Assembly: GCA_965652295.1 (NCBI GenBank)
Contig: CBFGTS010000009.1
Location: 96,001-160,000, forward strand
DNA from: an uncultured Haloferula sp.
GTDB lineage: Bacteria > Verrucomicrobiota > Verrucomicrobiia > Verrucomicrobiales > Akkermansiaceae
DNA length: 64,000 nt
Reading direction: 5' to 3'
Below are positions 30,042-37,070 of the stretch, piece by piece. A program made the position numbers and the translations under genes. Every line of letters starts with the position of its first letter. The first letter of the stretch is position 1. Below the pieces are notes generated by a model, which was not told where the DNA came from, ran no database searches, and saw nothing but the letters and a program-made list of their open reading frames with translations.

Positions 30042-31094
30042 TCAATCGTTCCGTGCGGAGGCTTGACTCCGTTCGTCCTGACTCTGGCTGTTCCGGGCGC
30101 TGGAGCCCTGCTGCGAGCCGGAGCCGCGGAGCCGCGTCTGGTCGCCCTCAACACGAATCTTCTTCGCGACGATCAGCGTCTTGCCGTCGACCTTCTTGCG
30201 GTCGCCCTGAATCCAGACGGTGTCGCCCTTGTCCAGGTTCAGATCGCTCAGCTCGGTGCCGGCACCAAGGTCGGCGACGCAGCTGCGGCCGTCCTTCATT
30301 TCAAGACGCACCACAAGGTTGTCCTCACGCTGCTGGTTATCGAGGTCGACCTTCGTGACGTCCTCCAGCGTGCCGCGGCGTGTGATTGGGTTCTGGTTCG
30401 AACGATTTTGCTGGGAGTTCTGTGACAGGTCCGGCTGGTTGCGATCCTGCACGCGGAACGTCTCTCCGCCGGTGCGGATACGGTTCGCCAGGATCACCTT
30501 GCGCCCGTCCACCTTCGCCACCGGTCCGGAGACCGAAATGCGGTCGCCTTTTTCAAGGTCGAGTTCGCCGACGCTCTTGTCGCTGCCGAGGCTGATCACC
30601 CGGCTCTTGCCGTCCTGCAGATTCACCTTCACGAACGAATGCGATTCTTTCACGCCCTTCTGGTCGGTCAGGTCGACCTGGCGGAAACCATCGATGGTCC
30701 CTTGAAGGCGCGCGGTCTGACGGTCGGAGGAGCGGTTGTTCCGGTTCGAGGCCTGCTGCTGATTCGAGGTGTCCTCGGTCCAGTCGGTTTCGACAGGATC
30801 CCAGTAGTAGTAGACGTACCCGACGGGGTCATAGAGGCCGTAGGTGTCGTAAGTGTCATCCCAATAAGTGTCGGACCAGTCGGTGTCCGACTCATACGAG
30901 ATCTGGTTGTCATCGTTGAACCAATCGCCCGGATCATACCACTCTTCCTCGTGGTAGCCCTTCTCGGCGTCATATTCGATCTCGGTGTCGGCAAATGCCG
31001 CGCCGGAGCCAAGCCCGACGGCAAGGGCCGTGCCGAGCGCCAGTCTCCTGAGTGAACGGCGGCTCAAGTACATTATGTCTTGTGTCTTCTTCAT
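30042..31094 (-). CDS. Secreted hypothetical protein with an acidic/aromatic N-domain and two OB-fold-like repeats
   Basis: Signal peptide ending AAFA, D/E/Y/W-rich segment, two repeats of G...V.L.DG.S.V..LG....L.L.KGD...V.G...VDG...I.A..IR. Confidence 0.75.
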   Translation of the reverse strand: MKKTQDIMYLSRRSLRRLALGTALAVGLGSGAAFADTEIEYDAEKGYHEEEWYDPGDWFNDDNQISYESDTDWSDTYWDDTYDTYGLYDPVGYVYYYWDPVETDWTEDTSNQQQASNRNNRSSDRQTARLQGTIDGFRQVDLTDQKGVKESHSFVKVNLQDGKSRVISLGSDKSVGELDLEKGDRISVSGPVAKVDGRKVILANRIRTGGETFRVQDRNQPDLSQNSQQNRSNQNPITRRGTLEDVTKVDLDNQQREDNLVVRLEMKDGRSCVADLGAGTELSDLNLDKGDTVWIQGDRKKVDGKTLIVAKKIRVEGDQTRLRGSGSQQGSSARNSQSQDERSQASARND

Positions 31095-31446: not shown

Positions 31447-32073
31447 TCACGGCTCGAACCACGGCTGCCCGGGCGCGGCCTCGATGCCCATCACCCGCCG
31501 GACAGCGCGCGGGTAGCTGACGTTCTCGGAATTCTCCAGCTCCAGCCGGTCGATGACCCTCAGCAAATGGCCGGCATCTTCCGATTCCGCCGCCACCGTT
31601 TGCAACACCGCTCCATTGACCTTCACCTCATCGAATTCCACCCGGCAGCCATCGATCCGGAACTTCCACCTCTTCTTCTCCACCCACGCCGCCGCCACCC
31701 GCGAGTGGGTGCCGATGACCTCCCGCACCAGCTCCATCAGGGAGAACGACGTCCGCCGGGCGTCCAGCGGGTCCACCCCCAGATCCGGCCCCAGAGGCCC
31801 GCCAACGAACTCCCGCGACAAGGGCAGTGGCTTCTTCGCCACCGGTTTCCAGCGCTCCAAGCCATCCCTCCGCTCGATCAAAAGCTTCATCTCCAGCGCG
31901 CTGCCTCGGATCTTCACGTTCCGGCTCCAGGCGTTCCGCTCCCGGCTGACCAAGTAGGTCTCGCTGCTCTCCACCACCTCCTCGACCTCCGCCACCCCAC
32001 GCAGCCGCCCCTCCACCCGCTCCAGCGACGGCGCGAAGACCCTGAACTCGAAACGCGAGACCACCTCTTCCAT
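31447..32073 (-). CDS. CYTH-like (triphosphate tunnel) domain protein
   Basis: EFRVF N-terminal strand, ETY, NVKIR, VEKKR, EFDEV, terminal SY fit the CYTH pattern. Confidence 0.6.
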   Translation of the reverse strand: MEEVVSRFEFRVFAPSLERVEGRLRGVAEVEEVVESSETYLVSRERNAWSRNVKIRGSALEMKLLIERRDGLERWKPVAKKPLPLSREFVGGPLGPDLGVDPLDARRTSFSLMELVREVIGTHSRVAAAWVEKKRWKFRIDGCRVEFDEVKVNGAVLQTVAAESEDAGHLLRVIDRLELENSENVSYPRAVRRVMGIEAAPGQPWFEP

Positions 32074-32158
32074 CACCCGCCACCCTCGCCTCTCTCCGCC
32101 CAGCTGTCCATGTTTCACCCTCCAGAGTCAGAAACCCACCCAACGATCCCCGTACCGC

Positions 32159-32250: not shown

Positions 32251-35200
32251 TCACCCCACCCGCCCATACGGCCGGAAGGTCTCGAGGGTGCCCATGGCTT
32301 CATCGTGAAGCAGGGCCCGGTGCAGGCCCAGGTTGCCGGCGGCGGGGCTGTCGATGAGCGCGGAGGAATCGTTGGCGCTCATTTGGAAAAGCACCCGCAT
32401 CCGGAAGTCGGCCAGCGACTTGCGCGGGATCCAGCGGCCGAGGTTGTTCCAGGTATCGACGCTCACGATCAGATGCACGCCCGCCGCGGGCCCTTCGCTG
32501 ATGAGCGTTTGAAAAGCCTTCGCCGGGCTCGTGCCGGACGAGGCGTCGTCATCGAAGGAGAACTTGAACTCGTCCTCCTCCCGCAACGCCTTGAAGCGGT
32601 GCAGATCGCGCACGAACACGAAGACTTCCGTTTCATCCGTGCTCTCCACGCGCCCGGCGAGGTCGGTCATGATGCCGCCGAGATCGCCGGGAAGATGACA
32701 TTCCGATGGCTGCGGCAACCGCGCGGCGAAACGCGCCAACTCACCTTCCGCACCTTCGCTGTCGAGCACGATGAAGCGCGCGCCATCGGTCGGGTACTGA
32801 GCGGAAAGCGACTGCATCGCCGCCTCCATCAACGACTTCATCCGCTCCTCGCCCTGGCCGACGGCGAGCAGGTGCGAGCCGCTTTCGCGACGGAACACCG
32901 CCGCGGTCGGCCCCTTGATCGAGTTCGGCGCACCGAGCCAGGCCGAGGCCTTCTCCGGTCGGCGGGCGGGCGGGTTGGCGAGCGCCGCGGTCAGCTCTTC
33001 GTTGTCGCGCAAATCGGCCGGGGCGTTGCCTTCGAACACCACCGGCGCTTTCCTGGAAAGACCGTGCTCCTTTGCCATCGCCGCCACCTCATCGAGCCGG
33101 GCGTTCCTATCCTCCTCGGACAGCCATACGGTCTGAAACGGGCTGTTCGCCGCCAGCGCGCCGGCGTTGTCGTTGTAGATTCCCTCACCCGGACGCGTCA
33201 GCAGGCGCGGCGCGGGATTGTCGTCGTCCATGATGAGGTAGGCGTCGGCCTCGTTGCACTGGAGCGCGATGCGGATGACCATCTGCCCCAGCGTCGCGCG
33301 CGCCAGCGTGTAAGCACCGCCGAGCGTCTGGGAGCCGAGGATTGCGTGAATCCCAAACGCGCGACCCTGCCGCACGATCCGATCCAGCAACAGCGAGGCT
33401 TCCTGTGCGATGCCATCGTCCTCGGTGAAAAATTCCTGGAACTCGTCGATCAGCAGCAGCGTCCGCGGCAGCGGTTTCCCGGTCGCCTTGCGATAGCCCG
33501 CCACATCCTGCGCACCCGCTTCGCGGAAACGTTCGCCGCGCTGGCGGAGTTCCTCATCCACCCGCCGCAGCACGCTCAGGCCGAACTCGCGATCGCTTTC
33601 CACCGCCACCACCCGCGCGTGCGGCAGCTTCTTGGAGCCATAACACTTGAACTCCACGCCCTTCTTGAAATCGACCAGATAAAACTCCACCTCCTCCGGG
33701 CTGCAATACAGCGCGAGATTGGTGATCATCACGTGAAACAGCGTCGATTTCCCCGAGCCCGTCTTGCCCGCGATCAGCGCGTGCTGGCGGGTGCCCTTGC
33801 CGATCGAGAGATATTGCAGCTTCTTGGCGCCCGTGCGGCCGATCGGAACCCGCAACTCGTCGCCCGTTTCCTCCGTCCACCACTCGCCCTGCGGCGCGAT
33901 GCTGGAAAACGGCACCTCCACCCGGTTCGAATCGACGCTCGCTTTCCCAAAGCGGTGCACCAGTGAGGTGAGCAAGGCCGGCTCCGGCGCGCGTTCCAGC
34001 ACCACCTCGCCCGGCTGACCATCGAGCTTCCAAACTCCGCCGTCCTGCTTGAGGCAGAGACATGCTTTTCTCAACTCCGCATCAAGCGCCGCATCGCCGC
34101 CGGGCCTGTCCATGTGGATCATCAGGAAAACCCCGCAGCGCGCGCCGCTCGCCGCGAGGCTGCGCAAGCGCTGCATCGCCGTTTCGCTGAAATTCGAGGG
34201 GAACCCCGCGATGAAAACGAACTGGTATTTCTCCGCGATCTCCCCGGCCTGACGGTTGTATTCCGAGATCGTCTCAAACTCGTTGCGGAGATACATCTGG
34301 ATGACTTTCTCCACATGTTCGTTCAACTCCGCGAGCCGTTCCTCGATCTGCTGGCTCTGCGTCCAGATCCGACCATGAATTAGCGTGTCCTCGTAATCGG
34401 CAAGATGCATCAGGCCCGCGAAATCCCGGCCGAGGCCGACCGGGTCGATGAACGTGAACGCGGCCTGACCCGCCGGTCGGGTGGCCAACAGCCTCAACGC
34501 CACCGCATTCATCGCCTCGGTCGCCGCCGACATCTCCCCCTCGAAAAGCACCGAGCCATGTCCGGGGAAGCCGAGGTTCAGGGGAGTTTCGAGAGACTTC
34601 GGCAGATCGTAGGCGGTGTGCGCCGGCAGCCGCTCCGCCAGGTCGGTCCGACCCAGGCGGAGCGTGGCAAAGGGAATGATCTCCTCGCCCTCGCCCGGTG
34701 GTCGCCATGACTCCGCCATGGCGTCCGACCACGCCGGAAAACGCGCGACCTGGCTCGAAGTGAGATCGCCCAAGGCATCGAGCGGACGTGTGACATCGCG
34801 CTCCCAGTTCGAGCCGATCTCCGCGAGCACCGCCTCATGCCTCTCGTGCGTACCGACGTCGGCATCCTTCTTCATCGCCTCGATCTTCTCCGAGAACTCC
34901 AGTATCTCCGCCTCGAGCGCGGCCCGCCGCGTGGCGGCCGACTTCTCCCTGCGTGCGAGGCGCGCCGCATGCAAGGCCTTCTCCTTCTCCATCAACCTCG
35001 TCAACTGCTTCTCCAGCTTCCTCCTGCCGCGGCGGATGCGCTCTTCCGTTTCCTCGCCGGACTCCCGGAGGGTTTCGCTGAAACCCGCGCGCATGGCCGA
35101 ATCCTCCTCTTGAATCTGCGCCTTCAAACCCGCCACGCGCTCGTTCATCGAGGCCACCGCCATCGATCCCGACAAACGGATCCGCTGGATGGCATCCGCC

Positions 35201-35997
35201 AACCGGACGGCCGCACCCCAGATGAAACCAAGCGCCACTCCATACACCACGACCAGCACTCCAACCGCGATCCCCGCCGCGGGCAGCCACGCTTCCACCT
35301 GCGCCGGCATTCCTGAGGACCACGCCGCGATTCCCACCGCCACCACCAGCAGCACGGGAAACGGTAAGAAACGGAAGACCTTCGCCAGCGGCAAAGCCCG
35401 TACCTTCTCCAAGGCAGCCACGGCTTCCGCCTTCAGATCGCCGGCATCTCCCGCCGGGATCGAACTACCCTTGCCGCCGTACTTCTTCGCGAAAAACGGC
35501 TTGAAGCCCCAGAGATGCCTGAGGCCCTCGTCCGCCATCCGGTCGGCTTCCGCGCGGTCTTCCGTCGCCTTGGCATGCAGCGCGTGCAGTTCCTTTTTCG
35601 CCCGCTCGTAGGTTTCCTGAAGCTCCTCCTGGCGCTTCATCATCGTCCCCTGCGCCTGACCCACCACTTGGTCCCGCTCGGCGTTGATTTCGTTCGTGAG
35701 CCCCTGCCTGGCACCATGATAGCGCTCCTGAATCCACTCCTTCCGCCGCTCGTGCAACAGGATCACCGCTTCCCCTTCCGCAGCCAGTTCGCGTTCCAAG
35801 GCAGCCCGCTTTTCCGCCATTTCCGCCTCGGATTTCTCCTGCTCCAGGCGCGCTGCGCGGCGGGTCGCGATGATATCCTCATCCAGCGCCTCCTTCGCAC
35901 GGTCCTCGTTGGTGGCGACCTCCTCGATCGCCTTTCTCACCTGGCTCAGCGTACCCAGCACATGGCCGGGGTGGAGGGGGTCATTCGCAGTCGGCAT
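32251..35997 (-). CDS. FtsK/SpoIIIE-family ATPase, EssC/EccC-like
   Basis: Coiled coil, two TM helices, coiled coil, then three RecA-like modules. Walker A AGKTGSGKST, LVDFKKGVEF, Walker B LLIDEFQE, RQGRAFGIH. Confidence 0.9.
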   Translation of the reverse strand: MPTANDPLHPGHVLGTLSQVRKAIEEVATNEDRAKEALDEDIIATRRAARLEQEKSEAEMAEKRAALERELAAEGEAVILLHERRKEWIQERYHGARQGLTNEINAERDQVVGQAQGTMMKRQEELQETYERAKKELHALHAKATEDRAEADRMADEGLRHLWGFKPFFAKKYGGKGSSIPAGDAGDLKAEAVAALEKVRALPLAKVFRFLPFPVLLVVAVGIAAWSSGMPAQVEAWLPAAGIAVGVLVVVYGVALGFIWGAAVRLADAIQRIRLSGSMAVASMNERVAGLKAQIQEEDSAMRAGFSETLRESGEETEERIRRGRRKLEKQLTRLMEKEKALHAARLARREKSAATRRAALEAEILEFSEKIEAMKKDADVGTHERHEAVLAEIGSNWERDVTRPLDALGDLTSSQVARFPAWSDAMAESWRPPGEGEEIIPFATLRLGRTDLAERLPAHTAYDLPKSLETPLNLGFPGHGSVLFEGEMSAATEAMNAVALRLLATRPAGQAAFTFIDPVGLGRDFAGLMHLADYEDTLIHGRIWTQSQQIEERLAELNEHVEKVIQMYLRNEFETISEYNRQAGEIAEKYQFVFIAGFPSNFSETAMQRLRSLAASGARCGVFLMIHMDRPGGDAALDAELRKACLCLKQDGGVWKLDGQPGEVVLERAPEPALLTSLVHRFGKASVDSNRVEVPFSSIAPQGEWWTEETGDELRVPIGRTGAKKLQYLSIGKGTRQHALIAGKTGSGKSTLFHVMITNLALYCSPEEVEFYLVDFKKGVEFKCYGSKKLPHARVVAVESDREFGLSVLRRVDEELRQRGERFREAGAQDVAGYRKATGKPLPRTLLLIDEFQEFFTEDDGIAQEASLLLDRIVRQGRAFGIHAILGSQTLGGAYTLARATLGQMVIRIALQCNEADAYLIMDDDNPAPRLLTRPGEGIYNDNAGALAANSPFQTVWLSEEDRNARLDEVAAMAKEHGLSRKAPVVFEGNAPADLRDNEELTAALANPPARRPEKASAWLGAPNSIKGPTAAVFRRESGSHLLAVGQGEERMKSLMEAAMQSLSAQYPTDGARFIVLDSEGAEGELARFAARLPQPSECHLPGDLGGIMTDLAGRVESTDETEVFVFVRDLHRFKALREEDEFKFSFDDDASSGTSPAKAFQTLISEGPAAGVHLIVSVDTWNNLGRWIPRKSLADFRMRVLFQMSANDSSALIDSPAAGNLGLHRALLHDEAMGTLETFRPYGRVG

Positions 35998-36196
35998 GGA
36001 TTTTTGAAATCAGTCGTTCGATATCGGCGATCACTTTGGTCGCCCGTGCGGCTTCATCGGCCAGCCCGTCCAGATGGGCGGCGGCGAATTGATCCGCCTT
36101 CGCATCGCGCCACGATTCGCGCACGCGGTGCCAGCTCGTGATCAGGTCCCGGGTCGCCTCGCGGATGGTCGAGGCCGCCGCACCCGCCGCGCTCAT
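35981..36196 (-). CDS. Small WXG100-like helical protein (W-x-D)
   Basis: 71 aa helical hairpin with ESWRDAKADQF, GGAGG RBS, overlaps both neighbouring genes. Confidence 0.75.
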   Translation of the reverse strand: MSAAGAAASTIREATRDLITSWHRVRESWRDAKADQFAAAHLDGLADEAARATKVIADIERLISKIHADCE

Positions 36197-36711
36197 GGCG
36201 GGCCTCCTTCCCCGCTTTCCGGCGTCGACCGCGGTTTCATCTCGCGCTCGGCATAGGCATCCAGCGCGCGGATCAGCCCGTCAAGCGTCCCGATCGCCTT
36301 CGGCAAATCCCCCGCCACGCGGTCGCGAAGGCTGTCGAGCGGCTTCTGCGCCGGGGCCACGACGCTGTCGAAATTCCGCGCCCATTTCTTGGTCGCCGCC
36401 AATTTCGTCTCCGCTTCCTCAAGCGTCCGGATGGCTTTCTTCACCGCCATCTTCTGTGCCAGCACGTCATCCTGAAGACCGGACATCTCGGCGGTCATCA
36501 ACTCGGCTTTCGCCTGTTCAAGGCGCCTCGTGCAGCGCCTCACCTCGCCTTCCCACGCGGTCCGTCGCTCGTAAGCCAGCCAGTCGCGGAGCCGCTTCAT
36601 TTCCGAGGAAACGTCATCGAGTGCGGTCTTCGTCCGCTGGCTGTAGCGCACCAACGAGGCGCGGAAATCCTCCAACGCCTCGATCGATGCCACTTTCGCC
36701 TGTTCCGCCAT
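36193..36711 (-). CDS. Coiled-coil protein in the WXG100 operon
   Basis: All-helical 172 aa, AKVASIEALEDFR N-terminus similar to WXG100 helix 1, WEG motif, GGAGG RBS. Confidence 0.8.
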   Translation of the reverse strand: MAEQAKVASIEALEDFRASLVRYSQRTKTALDDVSSEMKRLRDWLAYERRTAWEGEVRRCTRRLEQAKAELMTAEMSGLQDDVLAQKMAVKKAIRTLEEAETKLAATKKWARNFDSVVAPAQKPLDSLRDRVAGDLPKAIGTLDGLIRALDAYAEREMKPRSTPESGEGGPP

Positions 36712-36725
36712 CTTCGTGCCTCCGC

Positions 36726-36998
36726 TCAACGTTGGTCGAGATACTGTTGGATCCGTTCCGCCTTGCGCAGCAGATACGGCCCGTGTCGCTCCGCGACCTC
36801 GGTAAAGCGCTTGATGCCCTTCATCGTCTGCACGAACTCCGCGGCGAACTTCTCCTGCTCCTGGTCCTGCCAGGTTTCCCCCAGCGAGGTGAAGCGTGCC
36901 ATCAGCGAGGACGAACGGTCGCGCAGTTCCTCGTTGAAGCGCTTCAGCTCGACGGCAAACCGGCGCAGCTCCTCCGGATCGACAATGGCTTGGGACAT
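36726..36998 (-). CDS. WXG100-family type VII secretion target
   Basis: 90 aa, AIVDPEELRRFA N-terminus, central ETWQDQEQEKF turn. Confidence 0.88.
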   Translation of the reverse strand: MSQAIVDPEELRRFAVELKRFNEELRDRSSSLMARFTSLGETWQDQEQEKFAAEFVQTMKGIKRFTEVAERHGPYLLRKAERIQQYLDQR

Positions 36999-37070
36999 GA
37001 AAAGAACCTAACTCCCGGGCGCCGCCTCACAAGCGGCAATCCGGTGTGCCCACCCGGCTCCGAGCCGCTT

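What the first reader, a model, noticed from the sequence alone, without database searches (positions are those of the whole stretch)
32251..36998. Minimal type VII secretion-like operon in a diderm (LPS-making) bacterium
Seen: four tightly coupled genes. They are a 90-aa WXG100 protein with W-Q-D, a 172-aa coiled-coil protein containing WEG, a 71-aa helical protein with W-R-D, and a 1248-aa FtsK ATPase. No EssA/EssB/EsaA, EccB/D/E or mycosin genes lie nearby. Known: WXG100 plus EssC/EccC ATPase defines T7SS, which is characterised mainly in Actinomycetota and Bacillota. lpxI, a TonB receptor and opgH show this host has an outer membrane. Inference: this is a stripped-down, W-x-D variant T7SS-like module of PVC bacteria. 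Its function is unknown: inner-membrane export, interbacterial activity or a non-secretory role.
Basis: partly seen in the sequence, partly recalled or inferred. Interest (0 to 1): 0.8.

Follow-up and report, generated by a model that had tools for sequence, protein, structure and literature searches.

The report
Toxin-free type VII-like four-gene module
This outer-membrane bacterium carries a conserved four-gene relative of the type VII protein-export machines, a family noted by computation since 2012 but with no experimental test found here; it likely handles a bundle of three small helical proteins at the inner membrane, carries no toxin, and one related genus keeps it without its membrane anchor.

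Summary
Observation confirmed: four coupled genes in a Haloferula-like, LPS-making verrucomicrobium. They encode a WXG100 protein (W-x-D), a 172-aa helical hairpin, a 71-aa W-x-D protein and an EccC/EssC-fold ATPase whose middle domain alone has intact motifs. The 'WEG' is not a conserved motif. The unit is near-core in the genus (27 of 31 genomes, one copy each) and intact in 62 of 67 relative loci. No other T7SS membrane component was found.

It is not new as a family and not PVC-specific. Zhang et al. 2012 list this ATPase and solo WXG proteins in verrucomicrobia and planctomycetes. Bell 2024 and Uchiyama 2016 describe the nuclease-linked versions (CoCoNuT, Helicobacter HP0062/HP0066). This scan found it twice before on other DNA.

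Added here: the verrucomicrobial form has no nuclease or immunity gene and carries a transmembrane hairpin inside a long coiled coil. One genus (Prosthecobacter) lost that hairpin (26 of 26 full-length ATPases) yet keeps the ATPase under purifying selection. The hairpin is therefore probably an anchor, not the pore as in EccC.

The parts
36726..36998 (-). P0001, 90-aa WXG100 protein with W-Q-D-x-E at the turn (EsxA/HP0062-like); the most conserved part
   Evidence: Pfam PF06013 over cut-off; best solved relative H. pylori HP0062, 3FX7/2GTS, E 2e-7; mean column identity 79% in 64 rows; dN/dS 0.04
36193..36711 (-). P0002, 172-aa single long helical hairpin (helices 2-77 and 80-158) with a low-complexity tail; sits in the operon slot where relatives carry a coiled-coil-nuclease fusion, but has no toxin domain
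   Evidence: AlphaFold pLDDT 92.6; no specific fold match; invariant R17, W44, W110, Y153; 2676 family representatives, best 150 all 265 aa or shorter; slot comparison
35981..36196 (-). P0003, 71-aa short WXG100-like protein with W-x-D-x-K, overlapping the ATPase start
   Evidence: W29 and D31 in 69 of 69 rows; weak hits to TIGR03930 (E 0.045) and S. aureus EsxA (E 0.34); overlap of 8 or 17 nt with the ATPase in 53 of 62 loci; not folded
32251..35997 (-). P0004, 1248-aa EccC/EssC-like ATPase: coiled-coil arm, transmembrane hairpin, return arm, three RecA-like domains
   Evidence: Foldseek top 8 hits are EccC/EssC, E 2.5e-34 to 1.8e-18; TIGR03924/03925/03928 hits below their cut-offs
35197..35397 (-). 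Predicted transmembrane hairpin (residues 201-267) in the middle of the N-terminal coiled-coil region
   Evidence: Kyte-Doolittle peaks 2.24 and 2.48; present in 63 of 67 full-length relatives; cleanly deleted (about 62 aa) in the Prosthecobacter clade. Hydropathy only; this part was not folded
33928..34602 (-). First RecA-like domain, no Walker A or B but strongly conserved; lies where EccC has its dead DUF domain (inferred equivalence)
   Evidence: motif table; 57% mean identity against about 20% for the coiled coil; folded with an alpha/beta pattern
33103..33900 (-). Middle domain, the only one with intact ATPase motifs (Walker A 744-751, Walker B IDEFQE, RQGRAFG)
   Evidence: motifs intact in 68 of 68 rows; best match is the first ATPase domain of EccC, EccC5 and YukB
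32260..32955 (-). Third RecA-like domain, degenerate
   Evidence: profile match to the middle domain, probability 96.5%; Walker motifs lost

Best explanation
These four genes are the toxin-free verrucomicrobial form of the three-domain, middle-active EccC-like ATPase/WXG100 module, and the ATPase likely sits at the cytoplasmic face of the inner membrane, binds a predicted rod-shaped bundle of the three small helical proteins and uses ATP to deliver it into or across that membrane. Shown: gene content, coupling, conservation, fold, single intact ATPase site, hydrophobic hairpin, absence of the searched T7SS subunits and of a linked toxin. Inferred from known T7SS: hexamer formation; the long hairpin P0002 plays the LXG/PPE-like carrier role with P0003 and P0001 as partners; the first, dead domain is the equivalent of the EccC DUF and the active one of ATPase 1. 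Inferred from the Prosthecobacter deletion: the transmembrane hairpin is a tether, so the passage would be formed by the small proteins themselves or by an unlinked membrane protein. The end point would be the inner membrane or periplasm, not a rival cell.
For: Fold and sequence are closest to EccC/EssC, not to FtsK DNA pumps. P0001 is a WXG100 protein whose solved relative HP0062 is a dimer of hairpins. All three small genes precede the ATPase in 62 of 67 scoreable loci (61 plus L086). Where the operon is split, P0001 is still in the genome (5 of 5; L075), in 3 of those 5 with both other small genes beside it. In Caballeronia, a Helicobacter plasmid and G198/G298 the same order carries a coiled-coil-nuclease plus a small (in Helicobacter SMI1/KNR4 immunity) gene in the P0002 slot, the layout of an exported or released cargo. 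LXG carriers form rods with two small partners (PMC10801868, abstract and introduction); WXG100 proteins EsxE/F can form membrane channels themselves (PMC7810871, passages).
Against: No export data exist; RNA runs were uninformative. No EssB, YukD, EccB, EccD or EsaA was found. In ESX-5 the EccC helices form the pore (PMC8232910, passages), yet 26 of 26 full-length Prosthecobacter-genus ATPases lack the hairpin while keeping Walker A/B with dN/dS 0.06-0.17 in 8 pairs. The hairpin sequence is poorly conserved (22% identity). No YxxxD/E-type export signal is apparent at the conserved C-termini (motif recalled). Homology of P0002 to the nuclease carriers is weak (probability 16%) and a bridging test failed. 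No cargo is known.
Confidence: 0.45

Rival explanations
1. Non-secretory machine: the ATPase assembles or takes apart bundles or filaments of the three helical proteins on the cytoplasmic side of the membrane (an envelope or stress role), and nothing crosses the membrane.
For: A whole genus keeps the ATPase with no transmembrane segment; no hydrophobic segment was flagged in the P0002 rows checked in those loci; the six distant ATPases examined also lack the hairpin (Bell 2024, section 10); single copy and near-core in the genus; no cargo gene.
Against: All characterised EccC/EssC-WXG100 pairs export (established knowledge); 63 of 67 relatives keep a membrane-spanning hairpin; P0002 shows no specific likeness to PspA/Vipp1/ESCRT-III (TM-score 0.34-0.38).
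Confidence: 0.3
2. Delivery system for unlinked toxins used against other bacteria.
For: The Helicobacter plasmid version has an HNH nuclease and a SMI1/KNR4 immunity gene; T7SSb does this in Bacillota.
Against: No second copy of any small-protein family among 46,814 open frames of the genome; no longer P0002 relative (a weak test, best 150 of 2676 seen); no flanking family in more than 6 of 80 loci; no outer-membrane component linked. [quoted passage not shown]
Confidence: 0.1
3. Anti-phage or stress-triggered defence module, as proposed for the CoCoNuT/TerY-P-linked relatives.
For: Relatives lie inside VWA-PP2C-kinase-helicase operons (the upstream VWA part; PMC11090510, PMC4978471); patchy in the phylum (10 of 301); flanks vary.
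Against: No effector; neighbours here are housekeeping genes; native GC and GC3; PADLOC hits cover only the generic ATPase or coiled coils; 27 of 31 retention in single copy is unlike typical defence genes.
Confidence: 0.1
4. A DNA translocase (FtsK/SpoIIIE or coupling protein) with incidental small neighbours.
For: Pfam FtsK_SpoIIIE hit; FtsK and TcpA appear among lower hits.
Against: The genome has a separate 836-aa FtsK-type frame on contig C3; EccC/EssC outrank FtsK by many orders; tight coupling to WXG100 genes.
Confidence: 0.03

Closest known systems
'Mobile versions of T7SS' of Zhang et al. 2012 (PMC3482391, Table 1 footnote 6; passages read); also Anantharaman et al. 2012 (not held, known only through citing papers)
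   Same: Solo WXG proteins with a YueA-like ATPase of three FtsK/HerA domains, only the middle one active; verrucomicrobia and planctomycetes are named.
   Different: The footnote gives no gene list, no membrane anchor and no mechanism. Here the unit looks resident (27 of 31 genomes of the genus, single copy, native GC) rather than mobile.
CoCoNuT type III-A 5' extension / TerY-P-linked WXG100-FtsK module (PMC11090510, section 10 read)
   Same: Three ATPase domains with the middle active, long N-terminal coiled coil, two WXG100-like proteins, same gene order; P0001 profile hits the Caballeronia WXG protein at E 2e-25 and the ATPase profile at E 1e-113 among 24 proteins.
   Different: No nuclease, no small DNA-mimic/immunity gene, no VWA/kinase context; a transmembrane hairpin is present, which the paper says its ATPases lack.
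Helicobacter pylori HP0062/HP0066 locus (PDB 3FX7, 2GTS; PMC3397514 and PMC4978471, passages and section 17 read)
   Same: W-R-D hairpin protein beside an FtsK-type ATPase in an LPS diderm, called a minimal type VII set.
   Different: The Helicobacter plasmid locus examined has an HNH nuclease and SMI1/KNR4 gene and a shorter ATPase (823 aa) without the hairpin.
T7SSa (ESX, EccC) and T7SSb (Ess, EssC/YukB)
   Same: ATPase fold, WXG100 partner, two predicted membrane helices ahead of the ATPase domains.
   Different: No EccB/D, EssB, YukD or EsaA found; three RecA-like domains instead of four; membrane hairpin set in about 200 and 160 residues of coiled coil; W-x-D rather than W-x-G; LPS outer membrane.

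Membership tests
Middle-active three-domain ATPase + WXG module (Zhang 2012; Bell 2024) | Three FtsK/HerA domains, only the middle with Walker A/B | tested here: met
Middle-active three-domain ATPase + WXG module (Zhang 2012; Bell 2024) | Long N-terminal coiled coil on the ATPase | tested here: inconclusive
   Charged helical-type sequence, only coiled-coil-type hits; residues 1-399 were not folded and no coiled-coil predictor was run
Middle-active three-domain ATPase + WXG module (Zhang 2012; Bell 2024) | Two linked solo WXG100-like proteins | tested here: met
   P0001 over Pfam cut-off; P0003 by weak profile hits and invariant W-x-D
CoCoNuT III-A / TerY-P-linked subtype | Coiled-coil-nuclease fusion plus small partner gene, VWA/kinase context, no transmembrane segment | tested here: not met
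T7SSa (ESX) | EccB and EccD membrane subunits | tested here: not met
   (EccE and mycosin not searched)
T7SSa (ESX) | EccC with two membrane helices, DUF and three ATPase domains | tested here: not met
   two hydrophobic helices and EccC fold present, but three RecA-like domains in all; TIGR03924 114.9 vs cut-off 509 bits
T7SSb (Ess) | EssB/YukC, YukD, EsaA, LXG effectors | tested here: not met
   (EssA not searched)
T7SS, any type | Small proteins form heteromeric helical bundles that bind the ATPase | not tested
T7SS, any type | ATPase-dependent export of the WXG100 protein | not testable with these tools
   needs fractionation or secretion assays
WXG100 (PF06013) | About 100-aa hairpin with central W-x-G | tested here: inconclusive
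   P0001 passes the family cut-off but has W-x-D like HP0062; P0002 fails

The most novel reading that the evidence does not exclude
A third branch of type VII-like machines in LPS diderms that works with no dedicated membrane channel: a soluble or merely tethered EccC-like motor drives a WXG100-type bundle that itself inserts into or crosses the inner membrane, and free-living PVC bacteria have domesticated a toxin-free version as a housekeeping envelope machine. Prosthecobacter would be the natural proof that the EccC membrane helices are dispensable.
Probability: 0.2. Interest if true: 0.75.

Novelty: new member of a known kind. Interest (0 to 1): 0.4.

Why it matters
Reviews treat type VII secretion as a feature of Actinomycetota and Bacillota, and one states it is absent from LPS diderms (PMC3796261, passages). 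This four-gene unit is the smallest natural candidate for asking what an EccC-type motor and WXG100 proteins can do alone. Two natural versions, with and without the membrane hairpin, exist in harmless cultivable genera, so the question of what forms the T7SS pore becomes directly testable. The family itself is not a discovery, and no function is shown.

Tried and rejected
Complex prediction of P0001+P0003+P0002 was not available, so binding is untested. The VIA-align searches never ran (queues full); only Foldseek results exist. Fold search of P0002 gave no match at E 0.001, only generic coiled coils, so a PspA/Vipp1/ESCRT-III reading is not supported. PDB profile searches with P0002 and P0003 gave nothing significant. 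Homology of P0002 to the nuclease carriers: hhalign probability 16%, E 0.0016, controls E 0.05-0.22; 65% to one Rhodococcus protein; two divergent P0002 members did not bridge (probability under 1%), and family scores averaged 4.9 bits against 2.0 for reversed sequences with equal maxima: left as positional equivalence only. An amphipathic replacement tip in Prosthecobacter was not picked out by a hydrophobic-moment scan. Promoter scan found no sigma-70 site. Two RNA runs shared 5-7% of words and show nothing on expression. The Planctopirus essential-gene supplements list one FtsK and no WXG100 entry, uninformative. Anantharaman 2012 was not held. The tree is the quick version; long branches make the position of distant rows unsure, and its 'toxinlinked' label wrongly includes Deinococcus, where I identified no toxin, and Rhodococcus, whose C-terminal domain I did not identify. 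Eight paper searches showed no experimental study of this module; subscription papers are not covered.
Full report
What is there. The window holds four minus-strand genes at 36726-36998, 36193-36711, 35981-36196 and 32251-35997, separated by 14 nt, a 4-nt overlap and a 17-nt overlap. GC and GC3 match the surrounding genes. The closest named relative of the ATPase is from Haloferula sargassicola (80%), so the host is a Haloferula-like verrucomicrobium. It has LpxI and a TonB-dependent receptor in the window, and LpxC and BamA elsewhere.

The small proteins. P0001 is a WXG100 protein whose best solved relative is H. pylori HP0062, a dimer of helical hairpins with W-R-D in place of W-x-G (PMC3397514, passages). 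W43 and D45 are invariant in 64 rows. P0003 has an invariant W-x-D in 69 rows and only weak profile links to WXG100 proteins. P0002 folds as one hairpin of two helices of about 77 residues (pLDDT 92.6) with no specific structural match. Its WEG is mid-helix and the glycine is kept in 22 of 66 rows, so it is not a WxG motif.

The ATPase. Residues 400-1248 were folded (pLDDT 82, pTM 0.57); the eight best Foldseek hits are EccC and EssC. Only the middle domain has Walker A, Walker B and the RQGRAFG motif (68 of 68 rows); the first and third domains have lost them. The active domain best matches the first ATPase domain of EccC, EccC5 and YukB. EccC has a dead ATPase-fold DUF in front of that domain (bioRxiv 2024.01.26.577026, abstract), so I infer the order DUF-like, ATPase 1, one degenerate domain; the DUF equivalence is by position, not by a significant alignment. 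Residues 201-267 are a hydrophobic hairpin between two long charged arms.

Distribution. Full-length ATPases occur in 20 of 24 genus relatives and 6 of 16 other genomes of the order. P0001 is in 27 of 31 near-complete genomes of the genus, one copy each. In a phylum-wide draw 10 of 301 genomes matched, own genome included, two of them of the nuclease-linked type. Of the best 80 loci fetched, 67 had enough upstream DNA; 62 carry all three small genes in order (61, plus L086, whose P0003 hit is). Among open frames of 90 aa or more, no flanking family recurred in more than 6 of the 80 loci. When the operon is split the WXG gene is still in the genome (5 of 5), in three cases with both other small genes. 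Atlas clusters point to Planctomycetota as well; I did not examine planctomycete loci. All four genes are under purifying selection. EssB, YukD, EccB, LXG, EccD and EsaA were not found in the genome, nor a second copy of any small-protein family.

Prior art. Zhang et al. [quoted passage not shown] Bell et al. 2024 describe the same ATPase with a long N-terminal coiled coil and no membrane helices, two WXG100 proteins, a coiled-coil-nuclease and a small partner inside CoCoNuT operons (PMC11090510, section 10). Uchiyama et al. 2016 call HP0062/HP0066 a minimal type VII set (PMC4978471, section 17). I recall a 2011 survey by Sutcliffe with a similar message; it was not seen. Anantharaman 2012 was not held. 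Two earlier reports of this scan found the same module in other genomes. My eight searches showed no experimental study.

Relatives outside the group. Five of 1051 plasmid records matched over 80% of the first two domains; I opened four. Caballeronia has WXG, a 436-aa coiled-coil protein with a D...ExK C-terminal domain, a 113-aa gene, a 76-aa gene and the ATPase, within a VWA-kinase operon. A Helicobacter plasmid has WXG-like, HNH nuclease, SMI1/KNR4, 77-aa gene, ATPase. G198 and G298 repeat the Caballeronia layout. Deinococcus and Rhodococcus have the ATPase and small W-x-D proteins in other orders. P0002 thus occupies the slot of the nuclease fusion. Sequence homology to its carrier part is weak and one test failed, so only the slot is shown. 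The P0002 family (2676 representatives) shows no long member among the best 150, and a search of longer proteins found none, a weak test.

The membrane hairpin. It is present in 63 of 67 full-length verrucomicrobial ATPases and in none of six distant ones (two have single marginal windows). The four exceptions share a clean deletion of about 62 residues and form one clade (SH-aLRT 100) among hairpin-bearing rows, with weak support for the forks around it (quick tree); this is one event, not four. In the genus of L072 (Prosthecobacter by its record title) 31 of 61 genomes match; of 30 loci fetched, 26 are full-length, and all 26 lack a hydrophobic segment and keep both Walker motifs, with dN/dS 0.06-0.17 in eight pairs. 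Several genomes of that genus carry broken or contig-split copies, and half have no match, so some decay there is possible. In ESX-5 the two EccC helices line the pore (PMC8232910, passages). Here they can be lost while the motor is conserved, which favours a tether role.

How it likely works. By analogy with LXG-Lap-Lap rods (PMC10801868), P0002 would bind P0003 and P0001 along its length; the ATPase, held near the inner membrane by its coiled-coil stalk, would bind this rod on a dead domain and use the middle domain to release or push it. With no channel subunit, passage would need the small proteins to insert themselves, as EsxE/F can (PMC7810871), or an unlinked partner. I put export to or into the inner membrane at 0.45, a cytoplasmic-side assembly role at 0.3, toxin delivery and phage defence at 0.1 each. 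Family identity is near certain; every mechanistic step is inferred, and complex prediction could not be run.

Verdict. Real, conserved and untested, but a known family. The additions are the toxin-free four-gene layout, the membrane hairpin and its loss in one genus, which I did not find in the papers read. Interest 0.4. Supplements of Bell 2024 and Zhang 2012, not opened, may already list verrucomicrobial members and their architecture.

Noticed in passing
L070, L072, L075, L097, L112-L141: Prosthecobacter-genus ATPases have a precise deletion of the transmembrane hairpin, leaving a short conserved basic, phenylalanine-containing segment; motifs intact, purifying selection.
   Followed up: yes
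L110:6177-6605: In Deinococcus a separate 142-aa protein with one C-terminal hydrophobic helix lies just before an ATPase that has a short N-terminus; it may be a split-off anchor.
   Followed up: no
L108:5480-9448: The Rhodococcus plasmid ATPase has an N-terminal domain that looks TerD-like (recalled resemblance) and lies near annotated TerD genes.
   Followed up: no
L104, L105: Two genomes of the same phylum carry the VWA-WXG-nuclease-ATPase version of the module (L104 with PP2C, kinase and helicase, beside an insertion sequence), so both subtypes occur in the phylum.
   Followed up: partly
L145, L146, L144 versus L102, L103, L091: In three genomes the three small genes form their own unit away from the ATPase gene; in L145/L146 a kinase-like frame follows.
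   Followed up: partly
window 36999-37030: By eye, a -10-like hexamer ends about 6 nt before the P0001 start codon here and in several relatives, suggesting a leaderless transcript; the promoter scan did not call it.
   Followed up: partly
window 30042-31094 and 31447-32118: Two ORFs downstream without a Pfam hit at E 0.001: a 350-aa protein with a signal-peptide-like start and two repeated beta-rich domains, and a 223-aa protein.
   Followed up: no
G011:C96 and G039:C112: About 1840-aa frames with an FtsK-type domain, in genomes lacking the full-length ATPase; possibly SspH/MADS-type defence ATPases.
   Followed up: no
L096, L098, L100: Records titled Klebsiella, Limnocylindrales and Bacteroidetes carry ATPases nested among Verrucomicrobiota; mislabelled or contaminated assemblies are likelier than transfer.
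   Followed up: no
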